Positions 11,501 to 56,654 of a DNA stretch of 64,000 bases are shown one piece after another. Source of the DNA: Haliotis cracherodii (Eukaryota); NCBI RefSeq assembly GCF_022045235.1, contig NW_027266297.1:1798001-1862000 (forward strand), in the 5' to 3' direction. Made by a program: the position numbers and the translations under genes. The notes beneath the pieces are model-generated. The model was given only the letters and a program-made list of their open reading frames with translations. It had not been told where the DNA came from and searched no databases. Position 1 is the first letter of the stretch. Each line of letters starts with the position of its first letter.

Positions 11501-14500
11501 GCCCTGAACAAACCAGCATGGATGAGTACAACACGCCGATCTTCACAGCCTGCCAGTAAAGCTGTAGATGGAGTGATTTCTGCAACAGAGGAGAAGTACT
11601 CAGCCCACACCAAGGAGCATGAACCTAAGGCCTGGTGGAAGGTAGACTTACAGATAGATGTGCAGTCAGCACTGATTAAAATCTACTTCAGAAGAGATTG
11701 TAAGTATGACAAGTCTTTGTCATAAATACTTATTAATTGAAAGACATGTCATTACTTCGTTCATTTGTTTAAAATTTAAAATACGTGACATGTATAATTT
11801 GCAATATTAACATCGCTTTTTTTTCAAAAACACCGTATAACATGCATGTATTAATCCCTGTCTCTGGATAATTTAATGATTGTTTGAACAATATTTTCAT
11901 CTTAATTCCTTTGCATACAATTGTAATGTCTTTTTCACATAATGGTCACCTTAATTAATACAGTAATCTCAATGTACCAACGATACACTTTTTAAATGAA
12001 CAACATTTTATACGACTCCGATTTTCAATTTCTCAATTTCTTAATTATAACCACATTTAAACACCTGAAGTACCTTCTGTACAATATTTTCCTGCATAAC
12101 ATAATTGTTGGAAGAGTTATTTCTTTGTTGGATATTTAACTTCACTCACAGCAATATTCCAACTATATGAGGATGACCTGTAAATAATTAATCAGGACTG
12201 GTATTATGGGTTGCATACCATTCATCAGTATCCAATTGCTCACAATCAACAAATTAACATGATTCATTAGGTCCCTGTTTACGTTCAGGTTGCTTGGGAA
12301 CTATTCAGCCTGAAACCAGTACGAGGTTATTTTACCGGACGATCATAAACACGACCGTTAAGTTTGATATGAAGACTAAATATAAATATTTGACACAGGA
12401 ATATGCACATATTTTAAAAACATTTTTAGAAATTCTGAGTAGGAATTTAATTTGGTATACAATTAACATGGCATAAATGTTAAGATTATGACAATTCAAG
12501 ACTTTATAGTTAAGAACACAATGGGAAGTCAGAGTGGAAAGCTTTTCTTGGTTAACAATTAACAAGATGACAAAACAGTTAACATTGTGACAATGTCAGA
12601 CTTTATTGTTAACAACGCATTTATTTCAGTTACCGCTCGACGGAACGGACTTCAACTCTACACCTCGGAAATGAATTCATCTGATCCAAAAGGGGGAGAG
12701 CTTTGCCACTCAGTTACTGCACCTTGTGACTGCACAGGCATCCCTCATGTCCTTAATGTGACCTGTCGTGGAACCTGGCGTTTCCTGACTGTCTACACCG
12801 AGACGAGTTATGCTGGACAAGGTGCTGTGTTAGACTTTGTTGAAGTACAGGTGTTGAGTAAGTATTGTTCTGACACAATCATTGCAGATAGAAGTAAACG
12901 GTACGATTTGTTCAATTTCTTTAATATTTCTGAAACAGTTTGTACAAATCACTGTTAACAATATCTGTGTCGTCCTTTTATCAATCGAAATTGATCGAAA
13001 TATGAACTATATCGTTCAGAGGCGATTTTAACAGAAGACCATTTTATTGCAAAACTGACCTATTCAAATAGTACAATTGTAATTACATTCAAGTATCAAT
13101 AGTGTATTCGAGCAACACGTTACAATGTCATTCTTTATTGATCATGCAGCCTTTAATTGTGTTATGTTATTTTATAATGCGAATTGATGTAGAAACTGAA
13201 ACAGAATATAACCTACAACTAGTTAAAGAAGGAGTGGATGAAATAAGACTGGAAACGAGAATATTCCATTTAGGAATATAGAAAATTACTAAATACATTG
13301 AAATCTACAATGTCACTAAAACCCTCATTCCTGCGCATGTTTCTGTGATTTGTTCTTTTCCTGTTTCTGTTTGTATTCATTTGTAGACATTTGTATTTGT
13401 CTCAATCCCACAGCATGTCCCACTGGTGATTATGGCCCCGACTGTATCAGGAACTGCAGCTCCCGACATTGCAAGACGCCATCCCCTACATGCGGCTCAA
13501 TCAGTGGAGACTGTCCAGCTGATGGCTGTCAGGATGGATGGACGGGGACGGACTGCACTACCGGTAACAACTTTAGTCCAATTGTTTTGAATTTGCCAAT
13601 CCGAGCAGAAATTCCTACTCATTTGCAGAAAGAAACGGACAGGCAAGAAGGGGGAAAACAATATGTTGCCATCTGCTTCTCACGTAATAATTGACCCTTT
13701 ACACATTTTTCACCGAAAATAAATCTCAATGCAAAATTCGACTTTCCGTCTCGAGGTGTACATTCAAGTCGTAAAATCCCGTCCACCTCGCTTGTGAGTG
13801 AGTTTATTTAGTCACATCGTCAGTATCTCAGCCATATCGTGACTACCTCGCTTGTGACAGATTGAATGAATGAACTCAAATGCGGTTTTAATAATGAAAA
13901 GAACATGCTAATTTACGTCATCCAGCTTTCACTCACTCCTACAGGTGCCAGTGTGAATGTCGCCCTGAATAAACCAGCATGGATGAGTACAACACTCCAA
14001 TCTTCACAGCCTGCCAGTAATGCTGTAGATGGAGTGACTACTGCAACACACTACAAGTACTCAGCCCGTACCAAGTATCATCAACATCACGCTTGGTGGA
14101 AGGTGGACCTACAGACACAAGTACAGTCAGCACTGGTTAAAATCTACTTCAGAATAGATTGTATGTATGACACACCCATGTGATGGGAATAAAACCTATT
14201 AAGTATAAACATGCTCTTGCTCTTTTCAGTTTAAAAGTAAACACATTGTTTAAGAAAAGGCATTTGTTATGTGACAGTGTATTGTTTTTGTTGAGATTGG
14301 GTAGTCGCTCGTTGTGTTGTGTTTGGGCCCATATCAGAAGCTTACCCACTGTCACTGCTGGATGAATATATATAGAATACTAAACGAGCTCCCGTGTAAT
14401 ACCAATTTTATGAAACGATTGAATACTTCTGGTATCTGACGAGCAAAAGCGAGTCAGATACCACAACTATTCACGAGTTTCATAAAATTGGTTTTACACG

Positions 14501-17500
14501 GGAGCGAGTTTAGTATTTTATTTATTACTGGCCATTTATAACGTTTTTATATACTGTTGAATGTGAATAGGCTGACACCTACACGACCCACGGCATAATC
14601 CAACTGTGTTTAACACAGCAATACTTCAAATACGTCAAAAGTTGAAACGTATTAATTTAATACCATGCAACGGTCCACCTTTAGAATTCGGGTGTCCGTT
14701 CCACAAAATTATCGTAGCGTTAAGGTTATCGCAACTCATATACTTTAATTTAGACCAACGACTGTCGTTGCGCTACCGTACGATCGCCTTGTGGAACGGG
14801 GCCTTGCACCTCAATTTTACAATCACGTCACAATACCCGATGACGTAATTTGTGGAATTTTATTGCAAGAACCTTCGGCGAAACAATGCCATGTAACGTC
14901 AACCTAGCAACAAGGTTGCTGGGGTCATCGAGTGTACATAAGCTCCTCTCAGTGATCTATCATCTCCACACGCTACGTCGTTGAATAAGCCAAGGGATGT
15001 TGAGAGCTTTCAATGTTTGTTAGAGAAACGTGTTCCGAGAGTACATAAGAACGCGTTTTGGTATTACACAATTTGTAATACAGCTGTATGTTTATTAAAC
15101 GGGTGATCTCTTCACGGGCAAGTAATAAATGTTATTAGTGTCTATTTGATACTGACCACTGCCATTAAATTATTTATTGCCGTTGAATATTGTTGCGACT
15201 CTATTGTTTACTGCCATTGTAATTGCTGTGCATTTGTTTGTTTTGATTTGTAAACTTTGTGAATTGTGTAATACATTTGATGATTGTATGCCACTGGTTG
15301 ATTGTTGGTTTCACACTAACTTATGTTAAGTACAGATTTCTGGATTAACGTAATTATAGTTTCAGTTTGGGAATCGACACGTAACACATGCACATATGAA
15401 TATACACTCTGGTGTTGGATAAGCTAATGATTGTTTTAAATATTTGCTCTCATATAATGATAACCTCATACTATTAGATTAAAAAAAGGTGGATGTGGGC
15501 AATCTCTTTATACAAAGGATAATTTTTACAAATCAATGACCATCTTTGTAACTCGATCTTTCCATTTGTCTTTATCATTGTAAACCATTTTCAACTTCTG
15601 TGCATTGTGTCCATGAATAATTGTGGGAAGAGTTGTTTTCTTATTGGTGCTTAACGTCGCTCTCAGCAATATTCCTATATCATGATGACCTGTATAATGA
15701 CCTAGTGATTGATAGTATGAGCAACACATCCACGTAATTGGTGTACATTTTTTCACAATCAGCCGGTCAACACAATTTAAAAAGTCGCCTTGTACAAGTA
15801 TTATTGTTTTTTGGGTTGTTGTTTTTACGGACAGTCACGACTGCTCAATATCATTTGAGCTGTTTCTTTACACAACATATCCACATGGTACAAATTAATT
15901 AGGAAGACAACATACGAATAAACGGTAAAATAATATTCACACTTTAACTAAAACGTTATTGGGAATTCAGAGCGGAAAATCTTTTAAAAACATTTTTGGA
16001 AATTCTAAGTAGGAATTTTCTTTGGTATACATTTAACATGGCATAAATGTTAAGATTATGACAATTCCAGACTTTATAGTTAAGAACACAATGGGAAGTC
16101 AGAGTGGAAAGTTTTTCTTGGTTAACAATTAACAAGATGACAAAACAGTTAACATTGTGACAATGTCATACTTTGTTGTTAACAACGCATTTATTTCAGT
16201 TACCGCTCAACGGAACGGACTTCAACTCTACACCTCGGAAATGAATTCATCTGATCCAAAAGGGGGAGAGCTATGTCACACAGTCACTGTGCCCTGTGAC
16301 GGCACAGGCATCCCTGATGTACTGAATGTGATCTGTCACGGGACCTGGCACTACCTGACTGTCTACACTGAGACACGTAATTATGGATTGAGTCCTATGA
16401 TAGACTTTGCTGAGGTACAAGTGTGGAGTGAGTACTCTTCATTGACGCAAATGGTTGGGTTTATTCCATTTTTTAAATGTTTCTGAAACTTCATGTAGAA
16501 ATGACTGTTAACAGTGAATGAGTGGGTGAGTTGGGTTTAACGCCCCTTTAAACAGAATTTCAGTTATATCACGGCATATCAGCTTAATGTGGGAGCAAAG
16601 GCCAAAAAGATGCAGGTCTTTGGTGAACCCGACGAGCACGGATATGGTGCTGACAAACCTAGATACATAATCGGGGCGAACCGGGATTAGAACCCACAAT
16701 CATATGTTTCTGGTGTGCCCAAGGGACGCAACTCTGCACAGCGAATCTCGGCGCCTTGGACGACTGGGCCACACGGACCCTCTGACTGTTAACAAATATC
16801 CATCGAAATTTATGAAGTTTTTTATCCATACTATTTTGTACGATAGGTTATGAACGCTAAGAACATTTTATCAAAAAGCAAAACTGACCTCATCAAACAG
16901 TACAATTTTGACAACATTCAGGTTTCAATGATGTATTTGAGGAAAACATTGGATCCGGTGATCTTCGATGCGAATACCAGATTCGTCCCAATACTGAGTG
17001 CTTGCTGTCAGCACCGTATAATGCTCACGGGCTTCAACAAAGTGATAAAACAAACGGTGACCGTGATATAAATGAAATACAAGGGATACCAGAGATCACC
17101 CTGACATACTTGAAACGACAAATGTTATTCAGAACCGACTGTCAAATGTATGGTGTAAGATCCCGTTGATAATGAAGTCTGGTTGTTTCAATCATTGTAT
17201 GGAAATGACGCAATTTGGGCTGTGTTCATAATGGTTTTAAAGATTACAATAGCATTTGGATTTAATTGAAGTTATAAATCCTAGAAACTTTTACATAGCT
17301 ATCCCTCGTGATAAATTGAGAGCAACATTTAATTTTCAATCAACAGGGTTTTGGTGTGCATGAAAATAGTTGGGAACTTGTATTTATTCCAATTTTAATG
17401 GATGTGGTCAATTTGATAAAACTGAAAGTAACTCAACTCAGAAGTATTCAGAGTTGCAGGAATTCCTGATTGATAGAACATTTAGACAACTCCTCTCCTT

Positions 17501-20500
17501 GCTGATGTGTGACTATGTTATCAGCTACATACATGTCAATGCCAGAGAAAGATCAGTCTGCATCATCCGACACATTGAAAAGAAAGTTAGTTTCAGGAAA
17601 ACAGATGACATCATAGGTCATTTCTTACAACAATGTCAAGATAGTCACCACCTTATCTATCCACCAATGTTTGAAGTGAAGAACTAGAGTGAGTGAGTGA
17701 GTTGGGTTTAAGGCCGCTTTTAAAAGAATTCAATTTATATCACGGCGTGTCAGCTTAATGCAGGAGGAAAGCCCGAAGTGATGCAGGTTTTAGACGTTAA
17801 CCTGACAACCTAGAAATATAATTGGGGCGAACCGGGATTCGAACCCAAAATCATAGGTATCAGGCGTGCCCAAGGGACACAACTCTGCACAGCGAGTGGC
17901 GGCGGCCTAGACGACTGGGCCAACCGTGCCTCTGAACCAGCCGAGATACTATAATAGGCATCTTGATCAATGCATAGAAATTTAAGCTAGCAACCTCTGT
18001 ATCAAGCCGTATCACAAGAGGGATGATTTCGATTCTCCCAGTTTGTTTACCCTCCGTGCTTGACAACATACTGACCCATACTGTGACGTTCACATGGAGT
18101 TGTCACACCTCCTTACTCATTCATCTTTACTTTAATGGTGACTAGGTTGACAGCATTGCATAGTATCATGGTTCAACGATACTGAACACAGGCTTTTTCT
18201 GGTCCAGACTACATTGTTTACAGGTGGCTGTCGGATGGTATGAATAATGCTGTTTGCGATGGACGAAAAAACCTCCCCCCCAAAAACGCTTACTTTTTTA
18301 ATAAAAATGTGTCGGGGGCTGCCATGAGAGCAGGGCATGCTTACTCTTTTCGCAAACACTCGGAATTAACACCCATTTTCATTGTCCCTTCATATTACTT
18401 TCATCACTATTTTGTCTTTTACACCAAACGGATTCTGTATGGGAAGATAATCGAGACTAATTATTCTCAGGCGTTGACGTTTTGAATTTACCTTTTCAAA
18501 CGATTGTCATTGATGTTTGTGTCAATGTTTCTCATAGTGCACATATTAATCACATACATACAATTCAGTTTGCAGCTCTGAAAAGTATGGTTATAACTGT
18601 GCCAGAAACTACAGCTCCCAGCATTGTAAAAAGTCTTTCCCTACACATGACCGAGTCAGTGGTGAGTGCAGTGATGGTTGTCAGGATGGTTGGATGGGTT
18701 CGGACTGCACTGAAGGTAATTTTACAATCTCAAGTGTATGCCACCTCTGTTTGACAATGATGTTGATGACCATTTTGCATTTCTTTGCTGAAGGAAAGCT
18801 TAGATTTTCATAATAATTATGAAAGCCTTCGTTTTTCTGTATGCATGTTATGTATATTCATCTAAATGATGGCAGCATACATTTAAAGCAATGCCATTAT
18901 TTGATTTCTCAAAATACTTTTTAGCATCATCATTCAGATCCTTCTGATACAAATAGCGATCAAATGAAATAGTAATGTCTCAAATGCTGAGAGAGAAGCG
19001 CCGAGCAGCTCAAAACAGATAGGTTGATTATTTGATAAAAGGCTGGGGCAATAGCTATCGTAAAAATAAACAATCTTAAGTTTGCAGTTGCACAATACAT
19101 ACTCTTGACGTTTTTTTTTATTATTCACCAGAGTCCACAAAGGGAAATACTATAATTTGTCACATTAAAATTTCAGAAAAAAAACAACAATTTCATTTTC
19201 CTATACGAATTCCATTTCATCCAGGTTGTTCAATTATACGAACGTATTGCAAAACGTGGACTCGGCAGCTCATAATGTAAATTCCACTACTTGTGGCTGC
19301 CTACGAATCATCACAATGCTACCAACCAGTAGGTAATATAATCACTGGTGACTTCTCTATTGTTTAAATATGGATCAAAATATCCTGAGTAGCTTAGTAT
19401 ATTGATGTGGGTCACAACTTTAAAATCATTATGGCTGCTGTCGAAACATATGCCAAAAATTGGCCAAAAGAGGTGAAAAATCTGGAATGTCTTTCAAAGT
19501 GGGTTAACTCTGCGCGTAGAATGCACAAACGTGAAATAGAGAAAACAGAATTGGAACAAACCCGCTCTGTTCCTGCCAAAGTCTGGCTGCCCAACATAAA
19601 AACTTTGTAGTTTTCCCACTGCCATGGCCTCAAGTTTAATAATCATATGTTATCATTACTACAATACATATTTGATTAAAGAACTTAAGTGACATCTCAG
19701 ATAATGCTGCATTTAAGGTCAGTTTGTTAACTGCGGAAAAAAGAGACAAAACCATTTCCATATCCAATAGAAATCAGGCATTGTTGAATTACGACTATAC
19801 CATGAACATATGTTTATTAATCACTATCAAATAGTATTGATACCAGGCGATCGCGAAAAGGTGAGCGCATCCTGCCCCACCGGTGGCACCCGTCACAAAC
19901 ACATGCAAACGCAATTCAATTGTTCACCTGAAAAAAAACATGGGAATACAACGTGCAAGTCAAAATAGGGAATTGCATCGGACATCATTTTTGTCACTGA
20001 TGCGTAAAATTTGGAAATGTCCTCCCCATGTCTACCACAAAACTTTACTTTACTGAGGCCTTGAATGTTGTTACATTGATCAAACAACTCCTGAGCAAGA
20101 GTTCTATGACTCTCTTTTGATTCTTGGTGGAATGAGCATGCTAAACCTGCCATAACCATGTATCACTTCTATAACTTGACGCTAAGACCTGAAGACATGT
20201 CCAGCAATATTTTATACTGGCTTCCAAAGCTCAGAAAAAATATGTACAATGAGAGATATATTGCTTGGTCCAGCAAATAAGCTACCTAATTCCTGTTTCA
20301 AAGATTAAACATAATCCTTGATACTGTCAAGGAAGGACTTTCTTTATGTTCGTTGGAAGTATTTGAGACAGGGGGAACTAATTCCATACCATGTGAATTA
20401 TGAAGAACTCAAAGCATTTGTTTACAGTTTTGCAATCACAGAAAGAACTAAGTTCAATGCTCTCAAAATATATGATTTTTAAAACGTTTTAGACCACTAT

Positions 20501-23500
20501 TCCATGCCACATAGCAAACTTCATTCCTTGATCGATAGGGCATTTGTTACTAAACGTGGTTACGTATCCATCTTCAGAGGTTCAGCTCAATTTGTCAGAA
20601 ATGAAAGCAAATGCCATCTCAAGCTGCTAAGAAAACAATATGTGACAGTATGGACTTGTTCATTGATAAAATGTGAGGGTGAGACATTAAGCCAAGAAGT
20701 AAGCATCCCCATTCTTGCTGATCTGTTTGTTATTCTCAAGATTCACACGAATGACTTGCTGCTCGAAGTGGCAAAGTCAAAACAAGGTAATTTGGCCATA
20801 TCGACGATATTTCTAGATAGTAAATCCTTACCTGAATCCATGTTACTCCTAACAGCCTTATCCTTAGAAGCTGGAACACAAGGCAGATCACCTCTTGTCA
20901 CACCCTGTCACCTCTCATATACATTTCACATTCAAGTACTGCCATCTATCTAGGGATGCTAGATGGCAGATCGCACCGGCCCTCCAGTGTATTTTGGCTG
21001 TGATGTAATATAGGTAGGGTATTCAACAGATTTTTCAAACAGTAGTTACCATTTTGTATAATTCTAAGTATACTACCTGTTGAAAATCTAAATACATGTT
21101 TAATGTGATTGACAGGCAAAACGGAAATAGTGGCAATGATGTAATATAGGTAGTATTCTTAGAATAATACACAATGATAACTTATGTTTGATTCCCCTCA
21201 CTCACCGAAAGGTGTCATAAATATTCATAGTCAGTATATAGACACGAATTAGACGTGTTTCTGAATCAGTGTGTGACTCTGGAAAATACGGCCCTGACTG
21301 TGGCAGAAACTGCAACTCTCGCCATTGTAAGACATCTTCCTCTACTTGTGACCGAGCCAGCGGAGAGTGTCCAGCAGGTGGATGCCAGGATGGTTGGATG
21401 GGAACAGACTGTTCTGAAGGTAATATAATATACATATTTTCTAGATAGTAAATCCTTACCTGAATCCATGTTACTCCTAACAGCCTTATCCTTAGAAGCT
21501 GGAATACAAGGCAGATCACCTCTTTTCACACCCTGTCACCTCCCATATACATTTCACATTCAAGTATTGCCATCTATTTAGGGATGGTAGATGCCAGATC
21601 GCACCGGCCCTCCAGTGTATTTTGGCTGTGATGTAATATAGGTAGGGTATTCAAAGGATTTTTCAAACAATTGTTACCATTTTGTATAATTCTAAGAATA
21701 CTACCTGTTGAAAATCGAAATATATGTATAATGTGATTGGCAGACAAAACGGGAATAGTGGTAATGATGTAATAGCGGTAGTATTCTTAGAATAAAACAC
21801 AATGATAACTCATGTTTGATTTCTCTCACTCACCGAAAGGTGTCATAATATATTCATAGTCAGTAGACATACACGAATTTGACGTGTTTCTGAATCAGTG
21901 TGTGACTCTGGAAAATACGGCCCTGATTGTGGCAGAAACTGCAACTCTCGCCATTGTAAGACATCTTCCTCTACTTGTGACCGAGCCAGCGGAGAGTGTC
22001 CAGCAGGTAGATGCCAGGATGGTTGGATGGGAACAGACTGCTCCGAAGGTAACATTGTATACATATTTTCTAGATCCTTACCTGAATCCAAGTTACTCCT
22101 TACAACCTTATCCTTAGAAGCTGGAATACAAGGCAGATCACCTCTTGTCACACCCTGTCACCTCCCGTATACATTTCACATTCAAGTACTGCCATCTATC
22201 TAGGGATGCTAGATGCCAGCTCGCACCTGCCCTCTGGTGTATTTTGGCTATGATGTAATATAGGTAGGATATTTAAAGGAATTTTCAAACAATGGTTATC
22301 ATTGTGTATAATTTCGTAAAACGCTACTTCCGACCGTGTCAGCGGAGAGTGTCCAGCGGGTGGATGTCATTATGGTCGGATGGGAACCAACTGCTCTGAA
22401 TTGTAACGTATACACATTTTCTAAGGTTGTGAGGGTGTCAAATGGTGTTCTCTTGCTGATCCAGTTACAGTGGTGGAAGGAAGTATGTTTTTTGTCTAAG
22501 AAATAAACAACCTTCGCTATTTGATCGTTCATTTTCTATTTTCTCGTAATTTGTATTACATCTATATGGATGGGATTTCATAATGTTTCCATTTATGCAA
22601 TGTACGCTACATATATTTCAACGTTACTCTGAAAATGCAAACCTTGCTAATGTCTGAATGCATTTATTTGATCTAGGCTGCCTGGATGGTCAATTTGGGG
22701 AAGGGTGTATGTTTGGATGTGCTGACCGGCATTGCAAGGGTACAAGCTCTTGTCCTGCTGATGGTGTCTGTAGTGGAGGGTGCCAGGAGGGATGGACACT
22801 AGACAACTGTACACAAGGTATGTTTGTGTGTTGTTTATGGACAGATCCTACATAACGTTTTTCCATCTGTACAACATAATTCGATTTCATGCGAAATTTA
22901 CTACATCTCAACCTCTTGTCTTTTAGTACAATATATACTCTTTAAAGAAGTAGGGGATCATTAAATATAAATGTCAATGCCAAGTATTTGAGCGAAGACA
23001 AGTGGTGCAATAACACTCTATGCAATAACGTTTATGTATATAAAAACTTAACCCCCAAAACGTCCGTTTGCACGTGCCTCACGAAGTGACGCAACACATG
23101 TGCGTAGATAGTCATTCCTGATTTTGACACTTTCAAGAATGGTCGATTAATCTCTGTGATTCCGCATATCAGTCACAGAAACTGACAAGAGTCAGCGTGT
23201 AGAGGGCAGTACCTTCAATGTTTTAGTCTGTGATTCACAGACATTTGAACCAACAAACTCAAATGTTGACGATCGAACCCGTTCAGAACGTCCCAGGTCA
23301 ACGACAAGAGTACTGAATCGATTGATCCAATACAAGGCTCAAAGAAATCAAATCAAGCAAAACAGCGAATCCAATTTCTGCAAACGTCATCAGGCTACTG
23401 GAGTACTAGTTATAGGGCAGCCGATTGCAACGTGTCTACATGCAGCTCATCTCCACCGACACGTGTTGTGAAGGCCAATTGCAAAGCGTGATATTGCCAA

Positions 23501-42893: not shown

Positions 42894-45800
42894 ATGACTG
42901 TGCTGTGCGGCGCAGTGTTACTTATGGCTTTTGTCAGTCTCTCAGCAGGTAAGCTTAATTTGTTTCGATCCAATTGTATATATATACATACGCCTATGNN
43001 NNNNNNNNNNNNNNNNNNNNNNNNNNNNNNNNNNNNNNNNNNNNNNNNNNNNNNNNNNNNNNNNNNNNNNNNNNNNNNNNNNNNNNNNNNNNNNNNNNNN
43101 NNNNNNNNNNNNNNNNNNNNNNNNNNNNNNNNNNNNNNNNTAATTCTACATTCCTGGGGTGACACTCTGGATATCCCTTGCACGAATTCTTACAAAGGCG
43201 TTGTGTCTGATCATTAGATCCTTTAAACTGGAACTGAGCATACATCGAAAGACACCAGAGAGTTTGACTGCACGTTCGTTCACGAATATCCCCACTACGA
43301 CCCATCCCAGTGAAAAATCGTAGAAATGTTCATCAACTGTCGTAGTATCGACTCGATAAATGTCTCGACTGACAGTTACTTTCCACAGCAGTCTTTGACT
43401 TTACCTTTATATCTATTTTACACGTCTCTATAATGATCGGTCAACTGATGAGTGATGACTAACACATGTAACCGCCACAGGTTCATTAACAAATTCGGAA
43501 ATCTCTCCCGTCACGGTTATGGTGTCGGCCATTTTGACGTCTTGTACTTGATATGAATGTAGTACGACGCGCTGTCATTGTGACTGACTTGCGGGGGTAC
43601 TTCTTAACACACCTTTTTCTATGATGATTCTATTTTAATACATACACTGTACCTTGTGAACAAACTACAACAAATATTCCTGTAAATCAATTTCAGCATA
43701 CATACGCTAATGTCATCTCTCTTTGTGGGGAACTATTTTGTTCCGCGACACAGCTGGTTGTTGTATGGCTGTTCCTTTTTTTTTGTTCTTTTTTTGTTTG
43801 TTTGTTTGTTCTTTAACGCCGCACGCAGCAATATTCCGGCTGTGGTCTGTGGTTCCGACGGTGGTCTGTAAATAATCGAGTCTGAACCGGACAATCCGGC
43901 TGTTCCTGGAAACAAGTCACACGTTAATTTTGGTGCTTGATCGCCAGCGCTATAAAATAGGGTTATAAAAAATTATAAGAATTGACTTTTCACTTTGTGT
44001 GAGTTCATTGGAGTGAAGGTCAAACATTGTATGAACGTCGAAGCAGTTTGGCCGTGAGTCTATGAACGTTCATAGTCCATAAACTCACACAAAGTGAAAG
44101 TTAATTATAAGATATATGACCTCATTAGAGCAGAACAAATCCTTTTCTGGGGCTCGAACCTCCATGTTGGTGCTCAGAATGACAAACAAACCCTTTAACC
44201 ACTAGGCTACATAAAAAATAAGGGTAAGCCTTTTACCTTTCTGGAAGTTTTTGGCACATTTAGAAAAATGAAGTTGTATATGTCTCGATATTTAATTTTC
44301 ACTGGATATAATAGTGTATCATTTTATTTAGCATTAGAGATATAATATTCATTTCATTTGCACTACAAACTTCGGGGGACTTTATAGACGAGAGGAGATT
44401 TTAATTAACAGAGTCCTTTCGGTTAATGTCAGTGTGGTACAAGAAACTTGTGGTTTAACGGCGCTTTGAACAGTACTGTAGTCATCTCATGGCGTGTCAG
44501 ATTTATGATGCAAGCCTAATAAAGCAAAATATCGTTTTTGCAATAGAGTGTATTACATATTCATGTCTGCGTTGAGAGGTTGCCCGTGGCGGGGAATACT
44601 AAGAAAGCCGCCTTAATTCCAATGCAGATGTTTGGGTTTATAACATTGTGGTCCACATGTGCATTTTAAGAAACAAAACAACTCCATATCTGCTACTTCC
44701 ACGGAAGAGCTATTGGTGGCACATGGGTAAGCATGTGTGCTTTGTTTGATCTTGTCAACTACTACTCAGTCAGTACCCTCTGATACAGGTAAAGGGCAAA
44801 ACATTGCTCTGAACAAACCAGCATGGATGAGCACATCCTGGCAAAACTGCACTGCCAGTAAAGCTGTAGACGGAGTTATAAATACAAAGGCCTGGTGGAT
44901 GTCAGTTCATACTGATGTGTACCAACCATCAGCTTGGTGGAAGGTGGATCTGCAGAGCGAAGTACGGTCACCTCAAGTACTTATCTATTTCCGAAGCGAC
45001 TGTAAGTATTTTTAAATGTGTATACTAGTATTCCACATGTAATATTTCCCATAATAATATCAAGTAAAACTTAATGTATACATCGCATACAACACTTCGC
45101 GACTCGCATATCGAGACCAGGACCCTCATAACAGTATTGACGTGCAACAATCAGAACAAACTGTATTTGTTAGCTTTGCAAGTGGACAAATAGCTGTGCC
45201 TTTATGAGATATTATCGTACTTGATGGCGCACATCCTTAGCGAGTTTCTGACTGCAGATTACAAAAAGAAAATCTAACGGACAAGACGAAGCAGTCAGGA
45301 TGTATGAGCTGCCGCTGCAGGAGGACTTGAACAATATCTTCTATTTAAAGCATAAGATAGCTGTATGGTGTTGTTTGGCGACTGACTACAAGTGCCAGCA
45401 TTAGAATGTACGTTCATCATCATCGAGGTTATGCATAGCGCCAGTGAAGTCGGTCAAGGTATATCCGTTGTCTTCAAATAAAAAAAATAATTCAAAAGCC
45501 CAAAGTTTATACACCACCTGTAAATTCACCAAAGGTATCGAGGATACATGTACACATCATTGGCGATATCAGGATTTTATTTACTCACGGAAATGACGAA
45601 GGTAAATGTTATATCAGTTGAATAAGCAAAGATAAGTTTCATCAAAATAACTGATAGTATATACAGTGTCCACGAAATACTTGAAGGTATAAACAGTGTC
45701 CACGGCGTAACGGTAGGTATATGCAGTGTCTACAGAGTAACTGAAGGTATATGCAGTGTCAACGTAGTAACTGAATGTATATGCAGTGTCCACAGAGTAA

Positions 45801-48800
45801 ATGAAGGTATATTCAGGGTCTCCGGAGTAACGGTAGGTATATGCAGTGTCTACAGAGTAACTGAAGGGATATGCAGTGTCCACGGAGTAACTGAATGTAT
45901 ATGCAGTGTTCACGGAGTAACTGAAGGTATATGCAGTGTCCACAAAGTAACTGAAAGTATATGCAGTGTTTACGGAGTAACTGAAAGTATATACAGTGTC
46001 CACGGACTAACTGAAAGTATATGCAGTGTTTACGGAGTAACTGAAGGTATATGCAGTGTCCACGGAGTAACTGAAGGTATATGCAGTGTTCGCGAAGTAA
46101 ATGAAGGTGTACACAATCTGCAGTAAGTAGTGGAGCCGTTTCGTGACAGATATTGGGTCAATTGTGCACTTTGTGATGAAAGCATGTCCCTGTCTGGCAG
46201 CAAATCAGGACCCGGTCTGGCAGCATTAGACCTGTGCATAAAGAGTCTTGTGTCACTCTCTCCATGAGAATATGGATGTAGATCATTGACAACATCTCAC
46301 CCTTTGTTACATAGAACCATTTTGCCGCAAGTCTTTAAAATCTTTTCCCCCGAATTCTAATGAAATAACTTGTTCAAGTCAAGAACTTTAACAGTTCTCT
46401 CTTGTTCTCGTCAGTTCTTAGAGATGCCTACCATGTGTGAAAATATTTGCTGTGAGCAATCAACAAACTTCTTAACATATGGGAGATATGCCGAAAAAGT
46501 AAGAGATGCATATTATGTTTTTCTCACTTTAGATTACCTAAAGCAACATAAATAGTCTATTGTCATAGATGTATTTACTTTACAGATGTAGTGTTGGGTA
46601 AATACGTTCCAACATGTTCATGTTTCTTTATATATTTAGGTTGTGAGTCAGGCTCAAACGAGATATACTAGAAAATTTCATTACACCATAGCGGCCATAT
46701 TGATTTGTGTTTGGGTGGCCCCATATCTGAACATATTTGGAATGTCATTACGTACGTGATGGAATATATACAGCGTCCATGTACCCAAGTGTCAATGAAA
46801 GTAAACCTGGTATGAAGACTCACTGCTCATTGCAGCAGTTAATAATAAGTCACTGATCATGTAGTCATTAAACGCACATTATTGACGAATGAATTGAAGT
46901 CATGTGCACCGTAAAATCATTAGTCTTAAATTGCCATGTATGTTTAAGTATCATGCATGATAACACTCGGTCATTGCACGCATAAAATTCCATTAAGAAA
47001 GACAATCGTAAGACATTTACGGTACACTTGAGACGGAGTGAATATGGTTTAACTGTGGAAAGCAACCTTGCTGACGACAAACCCTCGGTCAAGACAGGTC
47101 AAGACAACATCATTTTGGGGTTGAGGCTACAAGACTGAAGGTTACTCCTCTTCACAGATTACTCCGGGTTAGGAGCGCTCTATTGGTCATCGATGACAGG
47201 TGTATGGTACGGTGACGCAATTATCCATCCTCACATCTTTCCATTCCTTCAGACCCATTGACGTTACATCGCTGGACATGGACAAGTCATGGTTTTTTGT
47301 TTGTTTTTCAAAGCCGCACTCAGCAATGTTCCAGCTATATGTCGGCGGTCTGTAAATAATCGAGTCTTGACCAGACAATCCAGTGATTGAAATCATGAGC
47401 ATCGATCCACGTAATTGAGATCGATGACATACATCAACCATGTCAGCGGGCCAGACCACCCGATCCCGTTAGTCGCCTCTTACGACAAATATAGTCGGCA
47501 AGTATGGTTTGCTGAAGACCTATTCTACCCTGGGATGGACACATGGATATCAATATATTTTTCTGTTGCATATTGTTCTGTTTCTTTCTTTGCATTTATT
47601 TATAATTGTCCACGATAGTCAGTGTTACAAAGGTTGTTATTACCGCTCTATATAACTTATATATATTTCTTTCAAGACAAGCTTCGACGTAACGGAGTAC
47701 AGTTCTACACGTCAGTGACAAATTCATCTGATCCTAAAGAGGGCGATTTATGTTATACGGTCAGAGGACAGCAAAGTGGCGCGGACATCCCTGACGTACT
47801 GAATGTGACCTGTCCTGGAGCCTGGCGCTACCTGACTGTCTACACAGAGACAGGAAATGATAAGCATGGCCCTATCCTAGACTTTGCCGAGATACAGGTG
47901 TGGAAGGAAAATATCGAAACGAGCGATGATGGTCAGGAGACTCTCTCACAGACTACAACGTCAGTTGTGTTGAGTAAATATAGTTTGCTTCTGTTTTAAA
48001 ATATGTTTAACAAAACGTATATATCCGCCTGGTATTTTGTTACATACTCACATATATGTAGTTTTATCTGGAATAATTCATTACAATTTAGAAACAACAT
48101 TTCATTTTTGTTCATCTCATTTGCAGATTTTTAAATATCTAGCCACATGCAAAATACACATACATGTATCACGACACAACAATAAATGGAGACTTACTAA
48201 CGGATAAGGATTGTCTGATCACGCCTTGTCGAGATGGGATCAATATAAGAGATCAACATCAACAAAAGTGGTGACTTTGTGAATAATTGTTTATTGAAGA
48301 CGAGTCCACGTCAAGGATTCCTTAAAATGCTATTTGCTAAAACAACCGTTATTATTTTAGTATTGCATGTCCAGTGGTCAAGTTCACTTCAAACTGATTA
48401 TAATTAATACAATAGTTTAGAAATCGACCTTTACCAAGTGCACCATCAACACATATGGCATACCCAGGTATATAAGTTGTTGCAGACAGATCTTAAAAAA
48501 CACTGATATACTGGGAAAGTTATGTGTTTCTGAACTGTATTGATTGCTTTCTCTGATTCTTTTCAAGCACCAAGTGTCATGCCATTAACCACAGAACATG
48601 AATGTGGAGCAGGAGAATGGTATGGAACCAATTGTATGAAGTCATGTGCTGACCGTCAATGTAAGCGTGTGTCCAACTGTGATGTGATGCAAGGGAGGTG
48701 TGATGGTGGATGCATGGCTGGATGGTATGGAACAGACTGTACACAGGGTAAGAGTGTTCGGTTATTATCTGTTTTACCGTAGGAGACGTGTCCACAAAAT

Positions 48801-51800
48801 GGTTTACAGGACTCCATTGTGCCAATAAGCCAACACAGGGTGGCAGCTGGGTATATGTCAACAAGGTGGAGTTAAGACATCCATTGTGTCAGTCGACCAA
48901 CATAGGGTGCCAGCTGGGTAAATGTCAACAAGGTTGGGTTACGACATCAATTGTGTCAGTCAACCAACATAGGGTTGCAGCTGGGAGTGTGTCAACAAGG
49001 TGGGGTTACGACATCCATTGTGTCAGTCGACCAACATAGGGTGGCAGCTGGGTAAATGTCAACAAGGTGGGGTTACGACATCCATTGTGTCAGTCGACCA
49101 ACATAGGGTGGCAGCAGGGTAAATGTCAACAAGTTTGGGTTACGACACCCATTGTGTCAGTCGACCAACATAGGGTGGCAGCTGGGTGCGTGTCAACAAG
49201 GTGGGGTTCAGACATCCATTGCGTCAGTCGACCAACATAGGGTGGCGGCTGGGTGCGTGTCAACAAGGTTGGGTTACGACACCCATTGTGTCAGTCGACC
49301 AACATAGGGTTGCAGCTGGGTAAATGTCAACAAGTAGGGGTTCAGACACCCATTGTGTCAGTCGACCAACATAGGGTGGCAGCTGGGTATATGTCAACAA
49401 GGTGGGGTTCAGACATCCATTGTGTCAGTCGACAAACATAGGGTGGCGGTTGGGTAAATGTCAACAAGGTGGGGTTACGACACCCATTGTTTCAGTCGAC
49501 CAACATAGGGTGGCAGCTTGGTAAATGTCAACAAGTAGGGGTTCAGACACCCATTGTGTCAGTCGACCAACATAGGGTGGCAGCTGGGAGTGCGTCAACA
49601 AGGTGGGGTTCAGACACCCATTGTGTCAGTCGACCAACATAGGGTGGCAGCTGGGTGCGTGTCAACAAGGTGGGGTTACGACACCCATTGTGTCAGTCGA
49701 CCAACATAGGGTGCCAGCTGGGAGTGCGTCAACAAGGTGGGGTTCAGACACCCATTGTGTCAGTCGACCAACATAGGGTGGCAGCTGGGAGTGTATCAAC
49801 AAGGTGGGGTTCAGACACCCATTGTGTCAGTCGACCAACATAGGGTGGCAGCTGGGTGCGTGTCAACAAGGTGGGGTTCAGACATCCATTGTGTCAGTCG
49901 ACCAACATAGGGTTGCAGCTGGGTATATGTCAACAAGGTGGGGTTACGACATCAATTGTGTCAGTCGACCAACATAGGGGGGCAGCTGGGAGTGTGTCAA
50001 CAAGGTGGGGTTCAGACACCCATTGTGTCAGTCGACCAACATAGGGTGGCAGCTGGGTGCGTGTCAACAAGGTGGGGTTCAGACATCCATTGTGTCAGTC
50101 GACCAACATAGGGTGGCAGCTGGATGCGTGTCAACAAGGTGGGGTTCAGACACCCATTGTGTCAGTCGACCAACATAGGGCTGCAGCTGGGTATATGTCA
50201 ACAAGGTGGGGTTACGACATCAATTGTGTCAACAAGCCAACAATTGTGTCAAAAAGCCAACAAAGCTGGGAGTGTGTCAACAAGGTGGGGTACAAACCAA
50301 CATCGTGTAAAAAGGCCAGTATGTATATGTATCAACAACGTGGGGTTTTAAGACCTCGATGTTGTAAATAAGCCAATCTAGAGTGTCAGATGGATGTGTA
50401 TCAACAACGTGGGTTTTTAAGACCTCGATGTTGCAAATAAGCTGTTATATCTGTCGTTCATTGGACATGTATGATGTTGTGCAAATTAATGTTCATCCTT
50501 TCAGAGAAAACAACTGTCTATCGAAAAGTGTAGCAGGGCAACAAATACGAACTAACGTCTGTTTTGTACGTGGTGCCATTGTAAATATGATATCCGATTA
50601 CCCTTCATGCAGACAAACCGGCCAATAGTTAGTTGCTCTCTTGTGTATACACTTTGATTTACATCAGTAATGCAGCCATACTTCAGTCATACACATAACG
50701 TAAGTAGCCATGAAACTATATTTGAACCAATGCAGAAGTTAGTGCATGTATCCATAAAATGTGTTCTTGCCTTTAACGCAGTTGAAAAGACGTCATTTAT
50801 ATACATGCTCATCTTTGTGTACAGAATGCTTCCAGGGACTGGAATATGGAGCTAATTGTGTGGGTAACTGTAGTAGCCGAATGTGCGAGGGAGGGTCAGT
50901 CTCCTGTCCCCGGGATACGGGCCGATGTGAGTTAGGCTGTCAGTCGGGATGGACGGGAGAAGACTGCATCAAAGGTAAAAGGACAGCTTATATAAGACTG
51001 TATATTACCTTTAACATGACACATGTTCAATGAAGACAGTAAAACTGATATCATGGTATTTCTCTTTTATGAAGAGTATCTTACTAATTATTTGGAATGT
51101 AACATGTCTGAAGGCAGATGTTGTACCACGCTAAAAATGCTTATATTATGCTTACCTCAAGGTTTCACACTGACCATAGGATGGATGACTAGCCCCATGC
51201 TAGCTGGTAGCACCAGTAAATACTTCAATGTGATCACTCATAGCACATGCCTTTCTCTGTGCGAAGATCGGAATAAACATATTTTTTCCTATATAATATC
51301 ACTTCTCCACAATGATGAAAAAAACAAGTAATGATATACGTTTAGATGGTGTTCATTGTTTATATGTCATTGCGGTGACACTTTGAAAGCCTCATCAGAA
51401 TCAGGGACATGAGAACAAAATTGGCATGAATATTTAATTTTGACCCTTCATTTTAACAGTTGGCTGTTTGAGACAGAATGCTTCACTACATTATTGTATT
51501 ATTATACTTGGACCACTTGCAAGAACGCCTTCAAGCATTATTCCAAGCATTGTTCAAGTATAGCCTTGTACACAAGTCTCTTGGACTCTGTATGAATGTC
51601 GTGCGATCTACATGTGTGTGATTATCCGTTATTAGCAACTTAGGAATAAGTTTATATACCATAACGGTTTCGTCCTGTTTTTGGTTTTTTTTGCGGTTCA
51701 CATTCCAATGTTTATTTTTTTCAGAATTAAGTACATGCACCCTCTCCCCCAACAATATCAGTGTTCTTGATATCATTGTGGGCATAATGGTGGGCGTGCT

Positions 51801-52474
51801 ACTCATGCTGGTTCTTGGGCTTTACCTTCGTTCACTTAAAAATGGGAAGTGAGTATGATTACACATTCTATCATGAATTTGGAAAATGTTCGATCTGATT
51901 GGTTAATCAGAGGTTTCATATTACAATAACCATTTTTGAGAGAAACTAATATTTCCTGAATTGAAATAATGAAATGTACATTGTATGCTTACAAATGCAT
52001 ACGTGTGGTTACTACTATATTAATAGTATTTATAGTAATCCATGCTGAACCGGAAATATATATTAACAGTTTAAGTGACAACAGAGAGTTTAAACTGTGT
52101 CGTTTTTCTGAGGACGGCACAACGATCGATGTGACGTCAAAATAGCGATGTGCGTTGTACCATTGTCCTTTCAAAGTTTTTTTTAAGTTTCGTCAGCGTT
52201 AATAAAAATTAAATAAAAGCGTCCGAAAAAAAAGTAGGAACAACTGATTCACAATACGTTAAGCTTGTGCAAATTAATTGATATTATTTGGGGGAATATA
52301 ACTGCATGAATCATGAATAAGGAATTGCTTCATTATATTGTCTTTGTAATATACAGGTTGCACTGGAATTGTCGACCGGTGCAGGGACAAGAGATCATTG
52401 ACGTGCCTAAATTCGCTGATGTACATGCTACAAAAGACACGAACAATGTAAACATCATAGAAGACATACTGTAA
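42894..52474 (+). CDS. Gene 2: F-type lectin / EGF transmembrane receptor, ~378 aa, SP-FTLD-S/T stalk-EGFx2-TM-short tail
   Basis: Exons 42894-42948, 44789-45001, 47677-47973, 48568-48747, 50825-50974, 51725-51848 and 52357-52474 have AG/GT ends and splice into one open frame of 1137 nt; AATAAA at 52707. Confidence 0.85.
42999..43140. other. Assembly gap (142 N)
   Basis: Run of n in intron 1 of gene 2. Confidence 1.
44789..45001 (+). CDS. Gene 2 F-type lectin N-half exon
   Basis: NIALNKPA..AVDG..SVHT..WWKVDL..IYFRSD. Confidence 0.9.
45645..46110. repeat. 30-bp minisatellite (~15 copies)
   Basis: Unit ATATGCAGTGTCCACGGAGTAACTGAAGGT. Confidence 0.95.
47295..47536 (-). mobile_element. SINE-like family B copy
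   Basis: Reverse complement of the family B sequence. Confidence 0.8.
47677..47973 (+). CDS. Gene 2 F-type lectin C-half plus linker exon
   Basis: KLRRNGVQFY...LDFAEIQVW plus an acidic/Thr-rich extension; exact donor uncertain (47973 or ~47931). Confidence 0.82.
48568..48747 (+). CDS. Gene 2 EGF-like exon 1
   Basis: CGAGEWYGTNC...GCMAGWYGTDC. Confidence 0.88.
48815..50300. repeat. 67-bp minisatellite (~21 copies) between gene 2 EGF exons
   Basis: Unit GTCAGTCGACCAACATAGGGTGGCAGCTGGGTAAATGTCAACAAGGTGGGGTTACGACATCCATTGT. Confidence 0.97.
50825..50974 (+). CDS. Gene 2 EGF-like exon 2
   Basis: CFQGLEYGANC...GCQSGWTGEDC; 150 nt. Confidence 0.9.
51725..51848 (+). CDS. Gene 2 transmembrane exon
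   Basis: VLDIIVGIMVGVLLMLVLGLYL then RSLKNGK; donor GTGAGT, phase 2. Confidence 0.85.
52357..52474 (+). CDS. Gene 2 short cytoplasmic tail exon
   Basis: KLHWNCRP...IIEDIL*; aligns with gene 1 RLLWRN at its start; no Tyr. Confidence 0.75.
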
Positions 52475-53334: not shown

Positions 53335-53476
53335 TTGTTTGCTTGTTTGTTGTTTAACGTTGGTCAGCGGGCCTGACCACCCGATCCCGTTAGTTGCCTC
53401 CTACGACAAGCATAGTCGACTTTTATGGCAAGCATGGGTAGCTGAAAACCTATTCTACCCCGGATCTTCACGGGTC
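53335..53476 (-). mobile_element. SINE-like family B, internally deleted
   Basis: 5' head and tail retained, middle missing. Confidence 0.75.
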
Positions 53477-53918: not shown

Positions 53919-54080
53919 GGGCGGTCGGGTAGCCTAGTGGTTGAAGCGTTCGCCAGTCATGCCGAAGACCCGGGTTCGAATTCCGACATGGGCATGTGTG
54001 AAGTCCATTTCTGGTGTCCCCCGCCACGATATTGCTGGAATATTGCTAAAAGCGGCTTAAAACCAAACTCACTCACTCAC
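53919..54080 (+). mobile_element. tRNA-derived SINE (family A)
   Basis: A box TAGCCTAGTGG, B box GGTTCGAATTCC, (ACTC)n tail and 11-bp TSD TACAATCCATA. Confidence 0.9.
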
Positions 54081-54169
54081 TACAATCCATAATTTGTTGA
54101 TACAATTTCCTAAAACAAAAACATTGCATGTAAATTTTCAAAAGAATTATAATAGTGATCATCAAACGT

Positions 54170-55090: not shown

Positions 55091-55384
55091 AATCCTACTG
55101 GGGTTTAATGCCTATGGTTCCCTGTAAGGTGGGCTATCTTTGGTTACATATGGTATTTAGCTCGTATTTTAATAGTTTACAATGTCATAATGATATGTGT
55201 GTTGATTATAAGCTTTAGAGTTTCAAAAGGTTAGTTTTTAGGTTGTAATTTGTCACGTTTGCTAAGGATTGCTATATACGTATTGAATGCATTTGGGTCA
55301 AGGGTCTGTCTCACAAAGATAGCACTAAAGGAGTGGGTTTTATTGTTTGCTTCCTGTTATGTTCGTCTGAATTGCAAAGTATAG

Positions 55385-56371
55385 TCACGTTGATAGAATA
55401 TATTCATCTAAAATAACTTTCTCTACGCCAGAACAAAGATCCCCTCCTCGTGAGCGGTCAATGTGAACTATGCGACCTCCAATCTCGATGACATGTTCGG
55501 GAAACGCCCCCTTTAACATAGCCCTGGCCTCATCTGAGTCCGTAGCTATAACCAATTGACATGAACCAGCAACCTGCAGGTGTTTTTGTAGAAATAGGAC
55601 CAAAGCACCCTCAACAGGGCCCGTCGCATTATTTCTACCACCATCATTGGGTATGGTTGTGGACTTTCCCATTCTCATATGTGCACAAATTAACCTTCTG
55701 GGTGCTCTTTCTGTTTTTGCTTCAAAGGGATCAACCATTGCCTGAGTATTTGGCGCCAAAAGAGCTGAGCTGAAAGAATGCGATTCTGAATATTGTGCGA
55801 CCATTGTGCCCGTTGTACAGAAGAAAACAATGGGTTTTTCACGAGATAAGGAACATAATCTAAATTCCTAGTGTAGAAAGTCACGTCCTTATCATACATT
55901 TTTTCAATATTCCCAGATCGCCATTCTGTGTCCAAACCGATGATTATTCATGAGTTGTTACGTGTCTTGGCCATTACTTGTTTTTTGTTGAACACGCCAT
56001 TCAACCTGATTTGGAATTACAAAATTTAAAAATTCACATGGCTTTGACATGATTAATCTAAAGAGCCGCTTCAGCATCTGTGGGAGTAAATAAGATGTAA
56101 TTATGCCTCTCTGCCTGTCTGCCACACCACCACATCTACGTTCATCACACTTATAAATAATGTATTTGTCAATCAGGACGTCCACTGGTGATGCTACTTC
56201 TGGGGTGACGCCATGCAGGTCGGAATGAGTCTCAACTTGCTGCACTGTTCCAGTAGTACTATATATAGGCTGAGGATGAGAATTGTCAAATAAGTCATTG
56301 AATAGTAAATAACTCACGATGGTAATAACCAGCGACACCACAGAGAGAAATTTAAAGGCTGTGGTCTTCAT
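55385..56371 (-). pseudogene. Disrupted type II membrane fucosyltransferase-like (GT-B; alpha-1,2/1,6/O-FucT superfamily) gene
   Basis: N-terminal signal anchor, CGGVADRQRG, ICAHMRMG (motif I), VIATDS (motif II), VHID and DEYILST (start of motif III). In-frame stop at 55958-60, frameshifts near 55920 and 55690, truncated end. Splice acceptor TTTCAG just before the ATG. Confidence 0.75.
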
Positions 56372-56654
56372 GATTTTCTGAAACAAGGTAAGTGACTACA
56401 ATTACAATCTGCTGAAGGTTGTCGATTATTTGAATTCCAATATCTTCGGATTCAGAAGAATGATGTGAGTTTGAACAGTATATATGTAATATCACAGTGC
56501 CTCAACTTAATGTGGGAGAAAAGCCAACATTTTTGCAGGGTGTGTCAGGAACTCGAACCTATGGTCATCGCAGACCACCCGTGCCCACAAATCATGTCGA
56601 CGTCAAATCACATGGTTGTTTGTATGGGAATCGCAACACGAGGAGCATGGACCG

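What the first reader, a model, noticed from the sequence alone, without database searches (positions are those of the whole stretch)
55385..56377. Fucosyltransferase-like 'writer' gene linked to fucose-binding 'reader' receptors
Seen: about 3 kb downstream of gene 2 and convergent with it lies a single-coding-exon type II membrane GT with GDP-fucose-binding-type motifs (GGxAD, HxRxG, ATD, DxxxLS). It is broken by a stop and at least two frameshifts. Inference: linkage of a glycan-marking enzyme with lectin receptors resembles a self-marker/recognition locus, and null alleles (like human FUT2 non-secretors) could segregate. The lesions may instead be plain decay or assembly error, and the linkage may be chance.
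Basis: partly seen in the sequence, partly recalled or inferred. Interest (0 to 1): 0.7.

Follow-up and report, generated by a model that had tools for sequence, protein, structure and literature searches.

The report
Dead abalone fucosyltransferase-like gene among lectins
This is a broken copy from an abalone gene family predicted to attach the sugar fucose; it is broken in all three related species checked and is the only copy found beside fucose-lectin-type genes, so the pairing is likely an accident and not a self-marking system.

Summary
The gene, its motifs and its position 2.9 kb from an F-type lectin (FTLD)-EGF-TM gene are real. An intact paralog folds like AtFUT1, NodZ, FUT8 and POFUT (Z 22.9-14.6; next 9.1), so the family is fucosyltransferase-like. 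The window copy is an old pseudogene: three net frameshifts and a 69-nt deletion that removes most of motif III. Contigs of 8 public runs show no open allele: 4 of 4 same-species runs keep the frameshifts; in two related species the start codon and catalytic domain are out of frame, and two lesion sites are shared by all three. Substitutions look neutral (11 of 14 and 24 of 31 non-synonymous; 0.77 expected). So neither assembly error nor a FUT2-type segregating null. Linkage: 32 family copies lie on 13 contigs; 0 of the other 31 has an FTLD exon within about 20 kb, and the genome has at least 177 FTLD-type exons, so one such neighbour has a chance of 0.08 or more. The writer-reader locus is not supported. 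What remains of interest is the family itself, mollusc-wide and uncharacterised.

The parts
55325..56371 (-). Pseudogene of a single-coding-exon GT-B fucosyltransferase-like family (about 385 aa when intact)
   Evidence: tblastn 46% to L002/L004, E 1e-82; 57% to closest proteins when read with X at breaks
56372..56395 (-). Pyrimidine tract + TTTCAG just upstream of the ATG: predicted splice acceptor of a 5' UTR intron, as in paralogs; argues for a DNA-level duplicate, not a processed retrocopy
   Evidence: a similar acceptor-like site lies within about 30 nt of the ATG in 12 of the 13 paralogs printed (read by eye; L019 unclear)
56300..56359 (-). Predicted type II membrane anchor
   Evidence: hydrophobic run FKFLSVVSLVITIVSYLLF in the translation
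56114..56131 (-). GGxADR motif (G, D, R near-invariant in the family)
   Evidence: G 181, D 177, R 179 of 182 aligned
55928..55975 (-). Lesion cluster 1 (-1, -5, +1 against L004; net frameshift; TAA at 55960); no gap here in species B or C, B has a further -1 at 55981
55794..55810 (-). Lesion 2 (about -8 nt, frameshift), shared by all three species
   Evidence: no gap in bridging contigs of X4, X5, X6 and X16, X10, X15
55757..55763 (-). Lesion 3 (+1 nt), specific to the window's species
   Evidence: 4 of 4 runs of species B and C lack one base here
55667..55681 (-). Motif I, HMRMG (predicted GDP-binding Arg)
   Evidence: aligns to FUT8 HVRR; R in 180 of 185 family proteins
55538..55546 (-). 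Motif II, ATD
   Evidence: aligns to FUT8 YLATD; D in 183 of 185
55384..55408 (-). Start of motif III (DEYILST) followed by a 69-nt deletion removing CDxLxxSxSGF; polymorphic within the species
   Evidence: X3, X4, X5 carry it, X6 has 59 extra nt; species B +69, X10 of species C +68
44797..52471 (+). Neighbour gene 2: FTLD (exons about 44797-45002 and 47675-47950), two EGF-like exons (about 48597-48746, 50824-50973), TM exon (about 51736-51849), short candidate tail exon (about 52358-52471); H-x27-R-S-D-Y-K-L-R-R triad kept across the predicted splice
   Evidence: exon joins are predicted, no RNA
11492..22816 (+). Neighbour gene(s) 1: two FTLDs and five EGF-like exons

Best explanation
The stretch is a long-dead duplicate from a dispersed abalone family of about 30 single-coding-exon enzymes predicted to be Golgi fucosyltransferases, and it likely sits inside a large F-type lectin receptor cluster by chance. 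Shown: homology, fold of an intact paralog, lesions, their presence in three species, near-neutral substitution pattern, dispersal of the family, absence of FTLD exons beside the other copies. Inferred: intact members are inverting GDP-fucose-dependent enzymes, most likely adding terminal (alpha-1,2-like) fucose to glycans, with the motif I Arg and motif II/III residues binding GDP; this copy arose by DNA-level duplication (dS about 0.63 to its nearest paralogs), was disabled before species A, B and C split (about 4.6% DNA difference), and has since gathered further, lineage-specific lesions. It would make at most a 137-aa membrane-anchored stub without the nucleotide-sugar-binding domain.
For: Fold: L004 model pLDDT 83.9; AtFUT1 Z 22.9 (rmsd 3.5, 293 aligned), NodZ 19.1, FUT8 18.8, POFUT2 16.6, POFUT1 14.6, next 9.1; Foldseek agrees. 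Family: 32 matches of 34 candidates on 13 contigs, 29 of 32 in open frames of 364 aa or more. Lesions: no indel against the window in 4 of 4 same-species runs apart from +59 nt at 55386 in X6; net -2 (X16) and -1 (X10) between ATG and motif I in single contigs of species B and C. Neutrality: 11 of 14 and 24 of 31 coding differences non-synonymous against 0.774 expected; intact paralog pairs dN/dS 0.13-0.44. No intact ortholog found: best hits 51-65% over the read-through, all in the L002/L004 clade or more distant. Linkage: 0 FTLD exons in 1.18 Mb of flanks covering about +-20 kb of all 31 other copies, control 3 of 3 window exons found; 20 FTLD-type hits in the 1.3 Mb around the window; chance of at least one of 26 loci within 12 kb = 0.076, a lower bound.
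Against: The single close neighbour has a modest chance probability (0.08-0.11 with the 177 mapped exons). Three of the other 25 independent loci lie 187-335 kb from an FTLD cluster (P 0.06, threshold chosen after seeing the data; two share one cluster). Only 8 of 17 listed runs were laid, all as assembled contigs, which drop rare alleles. dN/dS of 0.40 to the nearest paralog suggests the copy was under selection for part of its history, perhaps at this site. No enzyme activity is known for any member; all Pfam fucosyltransferase hits are weak.
Confidence: 0.85

Rival explanations
1. Fossil writer-reader pair: the enzyme once made a fucosylated mark read by the linked F-type lectin receptors, and the writer was lost later while the readers persisted.
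For: Gene 2 keeps the H..RxDx4R triad (motif defined in PMC5712786, passages). dN/dS 0.40 to L004 suggests a period of function. Weak 187-335 kb proximity for 3 other copies. A fucosyltransferase gene lies in the Hydractinia Alr2 interval (10.1101/2022.03.25.485889, one passage; no role shown).
Against: 0 of 31 other copies, including the three closest, has an FTLD within about 20 kb; the nearest paralogs lie on other contigs 3.7-8.3 Mb from any mapped FTLD; the cluster holds about 20 FTLD exons and only this one dead enzyme gene; no FTLD in 186 family proteins and no lectin domain in 32 long members.
Confidence: 0.07
2. FUT2 non-secretor analogue: functional and null alleles segregate in the population.
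For: The locus is polymorphic: X6 has 59 extra nt at 55386 and about 1% substitutions.
Against: X6 keeps the upstream frameshifts on the same contig and one of its contigs has a further stop at 56292; species B and C are also out of frame and share two lesion sites; differences look neutral.
Confidence: 0.03
3. Assembly error: the real gene is intact.
For: One difference (55795) is seen in all four same-species runs and may be a private variant or base error of the assembly.
Against: X5 (another study than the possible source samples) matches the whole stretch in one contig with 0 gaps; X4 likewise from 55351. Deletions of 5, 8 and 69 nt are not homopolymer slips.
Confidence: 0.01
4. The truncated 137-aa product or a non-coding transcript has a function of its own (for example a decoy).
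For: The 5' 137 codons are open in the window and keep the splice acceptor and ATG.
Against: Non-synonymous changes and a stop (56292 in one X6 contig) fall in this part too; species B has a frameshift at 55981.
Confidence: 0.04

Closest known systems
Arabidopsis FUT1 xyloglucan alpha-1,2-fucosyltransferase (PDB 5kop; CAZy number GT37 recalled)
   Same: Best structural match of the intact paralog L004 over both domains (Z 22.9, rmsd 3.5, 293 aligned); type II topology; HxRxG-type motif I.
   Different: 14-15% identity; Pfam XG_FTase matches only 2 of 25 paralogs; acceptor cannot be xyloglucan in an animal (established knowledge).
NodZ and FUT8 alpha-1,6-fucosyltransferases (2hhc, 6vlf)
   Same: Z 19.1 and 18.8; profile aligns motifs I-III to FUT8, E 3.5e-4; Pfam NodZ and FUT8_N_cat each match 11 of 25 paralogs at E <= 0.1.
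   Different: No SH3 domain, no RRTDK motif I (HxRxG instead), one coding exon against the multi-intron fut8 genes (PMC4204859, passages).
POFUT1/POFUT2
   Same: Same fold class, Z 14.6-16.6.
   Different: Lower scores; membrane-anchored type II form; O-FucT Pfam in 1 of 25.
Human FUT2 non-secretor alleles
   Same: Inactivated fucosyltransferase gene with one coding exon (single exon recalled; non-secretor biology in PMC12717137, one passage).
   Different: There an intact allele segregates; here none was seen in 8 of 8 runs of three species. The closer analogy is a fixed pseudogene such as human SEC1P (recalled).
Biomphalaria GBD/MEGF single-pass receptors (SudRes1)
   Same: Clustered, duplicated lectin-fold + EGF + TM genes in a gastropod (PMC12297450, passages); fits the neighbours.
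   Different: No fucosyltransferase is mentioned in that paper's main text (0 occurrences); gene 2 here shows a short tail and no PTP domain in the window.

Membership tests
alpha-1,2/alpha-1,6/O-fucosyltransferase superfamily (GT-B) | GT-B variant fold shared by AtFUT1, NodZ, FUT8, POFUT | tested here: met
   intact paralog L004: top six matches all of this superfamily, Z 22.9-14.6, next 9.1. The broken copy itself was not folded.
alpha-1,2/alpha-1,6/O-fucosyltransferase superfamily (GT-B) | Motifs I, II and III (PMC4204859) | tested here: met
   Family: aligned to FUT8, conserved in 186 proteins. Window copy: I and II present but behind frameshifts, III mostly deleted.
alpha-1,2/alpha-1,6/O-fucosyltransferase superfamily (GT-B) | Transfer of fucose from GDP-fucose | not testable with these tools
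   no assay; no paper found on this family
FUT8 orthologs | C-terminal SH3 domain and FUT8 motif I residues (R-x-x-D-K, E) | tested here: not met
   no SH3 in Pfam scan of 25 paralogs; model ends at residue 387; motif I is HxRxG
Plant xyloglucan FUT (Pfam XG_FTase) | Pfam score above the curated cut-off | tested here: inconclusive
   2 of 25 match, best E 6.3e-5; 19.4 and 20.3 bits against 23.4 in two of 32 long members
NodZ (Pfam PF05830) | Pfam score above the curated cut-off | tested here: inconclusive
   17.9 bits for L004 and 27.7 for P0151 against 28.3
Functional gene | Open reading frame from ATG through motifs I-III | tested here: not met
   window and 8 of 8 runs laid
Balanced null polymorphism (FUT2 type) | An intact allele segregates in the species | tested here: not met
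   0 of 4 same-species runs; contigs only, rare alleles could be missed
Processed retrocopy | Loss of introns, poly-A tail | tested here: not met
   predicted 5' UTR intron acceptor is kept as in paralogs; no A-tail at the 3' end
Linked writer-reader recognition locus | Recurrent linkage of the enzyme family to lectin genes within the genome | tested here: not met
   0 of 31 other copies within about 20 kb
Linked writer-reader recognition locus | Conserved linkage in distant species | not testable with these tools
   no other mollusc genome is held; contigs laid were at most 2.4 kb
F-type lectin (neighbour gene 2) | HX24RXDX4(R/K) fucose motif and h2DGx calcium motif (PMC5712786) | tested here: met
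   H-x27-RSDYKLRR across a predicted splice, and AVDGV; spacing is 27, not 24; binding untested

The most novel reading that the evidence does not exclude
An undescribed, mollusc-wide clan of about 30 fucosyltransferase-like 'writers' per abalone genome, structurally nearest to the plant alpha-1,2 enzyme AtFUT1, diversifies by birth and death against hundreds of F-type lectin receptors, and this pseudogene is the fossil of a once linked writer-reader pair that stays intact and linked in more distant abalones.
Probability: 0.07. Interest if true: 0.6.

Novelty: new member of a known kind. Interest (0 to 1): 0.2.

Why it matters
The locus itself matters little: a dead paralog in a lectin array. 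The by-product is more useful. The family has 388 protein clusters at E <= 1e-30; the named members seen are all molluscan (Haliotis, Pomacea, Physella, Arion, Mercenaria, Mactra, Solemya) and nearly all are labelled uncharacterised. Molluscan alpha-1,2-fucosyltransferase activity and blood-group-like glycans are known (PMC8699351, passages), so these genes are testable candidates for part of that chemistry. If the linked pair were intact elsewhere, it would be a rare genetic link between a glycan mark and its reader in an invertebrate.

Tried and rejected
Pfam on the three broken pieces: nothing useful. Protein search with the 137-aa N-terminal piece among longer proteins: 0 of 85 candidates; weak test. 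No RNA holder listed; this says nothing on expression. First tree used two pieces in the wrong frame and is superseded for the window's branch. A 160-bp match between 57931-58082 and the 3' flanks of L002/L003 looked like a duplication remnant but is a dispersed repeat with up to 27 hits. No unique flank homology between the window and its closest paralogs. No FTLD fused to any of 186 family proteins. Atlas hits point to the same clan but add no function (one source). Paper searches listed no paper that, by title and abstract start, describes this family or a fucosyltransferase-lectin recognition locus in molluscs; subscription journals and CAZy were not searchable, so the family may be classified there. 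PMC4085046 (one passage; supplement rows) reports spiralian enrichment of PTHR11927 (galactoside 2-L-fucosyltransferase; 13 in Lottia); whether this includes the present family was not tested. PMC2824669 (passages) was not relevant. Earlier-findings look-ups near the place, by words and by sequence returned nothing. No complex prediction was run: no binding is claimed.

Full report
Observation. The six-frame translation shows on the minus strand an ATG at 56371, a hydrophobic anchor, GGVADR, and, behind stops, HMRMG, ATD and DEYILST. The neighbours are real: three FTLD first exons (Pfam F5_F8_type_C, E 4e-6 to 5e-4, below the curated cut-off), matching second exons, seven EGF-like exons and one TM exon. 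The last candidate exon of gene 2 ends near 52471, about 2.9 kb from the 3' end of the enzyme gene, convergently. Named homologs place the genome among abalones.

What the gene is. A search of the own genome gave 32 matches of 34 candidates on 13 contigs; 29 of 32 lie in open frames of 364 aa or more; a search with the C-terminal part gave the same set but one. Counts are lower bounds. Twenty-five intact-looking paralogs were aligned. Each Pfam fucosyltransferase family matches weakly: FUT8_N_cat 11 of 25, NodZ 11 of 25, GT11 8 of 25, XG_FTase 2 of 25, O-FucT 1 of 25 at E <= 0.1. The profile finds FUT8 in the PDB at E 3.5e-4 and aligns motifs I-III (motif definitions from PMC4204859, passages). 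The model of paralog L004 (pLDDT 83.9) matches AtFUT1 (Z 22.9, rmsd 3.5, 293 aligned), NodZ (19.1, 3.2, 249), FUT8 (18.8, 4.2, 255), POFUT2 (16.6) and POFUT1 (14.6); the next entry scores 9.1 (Foldseek agrees). Motif residues are near-invariant over 186 proteins. The profile finds 388 clusters at E <= 1e-30 and 3849 at E <= 0.001; of 10 clusters looked up, 5 carry a species name, all molluscan, one labelled L-fucosyltransferase by an automatic source. The family is thus a fucosyltransferase-like clan, not FUT8 (no SH3, different motif I). Activity, linkage type and acceptor are inferred.

Lesions. Against L004 the window copy has indels at about 55970-55928 (net frameshift), about 55805 (-8), about 55760 (+1), and lacks 69 nt at 55386, which removes most of motif III. 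It keeps a predicted splice acceptor just before the ATG, as paralogs do, so it is likely a DNA-level duplicate. In a FastTree of 17 rows (distant paralogs and the fragment P0007 left out) it joins the L002/L004/H. asinina clade (0.99) on a long branch; its exact place is unsure (0.63). dS to L004 is 0.63, dN/dS 0.40. No closer intact protein was found.

Error, polymorphism or old decay. Seventeen runs hold the stretch; 8 were laid, leaving out the two possible source samples. Same species: X3, X4, X5 show no indel; X5 spans the whole stretch in one contig. X6 has 59 extra nt at 55386 but no gap from 55386 to 56252, so it keeps all upstream frameshifts; one of its contigs adds a stop at 56292. 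Species B: +69 at 55386, -1 at 55757, -1 at 55981; in X16 one contig gives net -2 between the ATG and motif I. Species C: -1 at 55763, +68 at 55386 in X10; net -1. In the window the ATG and motif I share a frame, so B and C are out of frame whatever the exact gap positions. No run shows a gap near 55800 (bridged by X16, X10, X15; X7 only in short pieces) or at 55970-55928, so these lesions predate the split of three species that differ by about 4.6% (49 of 1065). Substitutions: 11 of 14 (X6; 15 of 19 rows typed, rows outside the gene or from paralog contigs dropped) and 24 of 31 (B/C; 34 of 40 shown rows typed, 44 rows not shown, six beside an indel or outside dropped) are non-synonymous, against 0.774 of sites; the two sets overlap in part; intact paralog pairs give dN/dS 0.13-0.44. 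Contigs hide rare alleles, so a rare open allele is not strictly excluded, but it would need reversion of lesions shared across species.

Linkage. FTLD-type exons are abundant: 46 matches to the gene 2 exon, 150 scored of 379 candidates for PF22633, 177 distinct after removing duplicates by hand. Twenty lie between 0.95 and 2.24 Mb of the window's contig; the pseudogene is inside this array and is the only family copy found on that contig. About 20 kb on each side of all 31 other copies (116 stretches, plus 2 beside the window) were scanned with an HMM built from 14 of 20 unrelated FTLD loci: it found 3 of 3 window exons and 0 in the flanks; exons cut by a stretch edge or very divergent ones could be missed. 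The chance that one of 26 independent loci falls within 12 kb of a mapped exon is 0.076 (0.11 at 20 kb), a lower bound as under half of the candidates were mapped, and the window was chosen because of the pairing. Against this reading: 3 of the other 25 loci lie 187-335 kb from an FTLD cluster (P 0.06 at a threshold chosen afterwards; not seen at 200 kb, P 0.44, or 1 Mb, P 0.40). Gene 2 keeps the fucose triad (PMC5712786, passages), so 'reader' is plausible, but nothing ties it to this gene.

Mechanism. Most likely (0.85): birth-and-death evolution of a dispersed enzyme family left a copy in a duplication-prone receptor array, where it decayed. Intact members would act as Golgi, GDP-fucose-dependent inverting transferases; the window copy would give at most a 137-aa stub. 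Rivals: fossil linked pair 0.07, functional stub or RNA 0.04, segregating null 0.03, assembly error 0.01.

Known context. Clustered lectin-EGF-TM receptors are described in Biomphalaria (PMC12297450, passages). Spiralian expansion of alpha-1,2-fucosyltransferase-like genes is noted in PMC4085046 (passage and supplement rows), possibly another family. Molluscan alpha-1,2 activity is known biochemically (PMC8699351, passages). A fucosyltransferase gene lies in the Hydractinia Alr2 interval without a shown role (bioRxiv 10.1101/2022.03.25.485889, one passage; its supplements are closed). CAZy numbers and the SEC1P analogy are recalled. An earlier unreviewed note from this scan reached a similar 'accidental neighbour' view for another sugar-transferase family in this genome; it is a lead, not support.

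Verdict. Real pseudogene, real fold assignment, unsupported recognition-locus story. Interest 0.2.

Noticed in passing
window 4993-8646, minus strand: Three long overlapping ORFs (353, 595, 350 aa); the middle one has reverse transcriptase (E 9e-19) and weak RNase H matches. The layout recalls a DIRS-type retroelement; the 350-aa ORF had no Pfam match.
   Followed up: partly
window 56656-57857: 20-bp satellite, 60.8 copies, 285 bp upstream of the pseudogene's ATG; it creates spurious ORFs of 271-438 aa on the plus strand.
   Followed up: yes
window about 54200-54750, plus strand: Broken pieces that recall the C-terminal RT/RNase H region of a non-LTR retroelement (recalled motifs; no Pfam match), between gene 2 and the pseudogene.
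   Followed up: partly
window about 48750-50350: Tandem repeat of about 67 bp inside a predicted intron of gene 2, between the two EGF exons (seen).
   Followed up: no
window 13956-14162: The second FTLD of gene 1 has Arg in place of the fucose-binding His (SARTK), while the other two FTLDs keep it.
   Followed up: no
L003, L006, L028: Other damaged family copies: L003 (near-identical inverted duplicate of L002, 175 kb away) and L006 have split frames; L028 seems to leave the frame in motif III.
   Followed up: partly
L021:514-1851 minus; L023:781-2004 minus: L021 carries a His/Asn-rich insertion between motifs I and II and a second hydrophobic segment at the C-terminus; L023 has Lys for the motif I Arg and lacks the conserved Asp of GGxxDR.
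   Followed up: no
G000 C6 19.97-20.90 Mb and C2 29.75-30.11 Mb: Intact family copies L022, L030 and L027 lie 187, 335 and 271 kb from other FTLD clusters.
   Followed up: partly
window 56470-56540, 53363-53476, 53909-54081, 57931-58170: Short dispersed repeats.
   Followed up: partly
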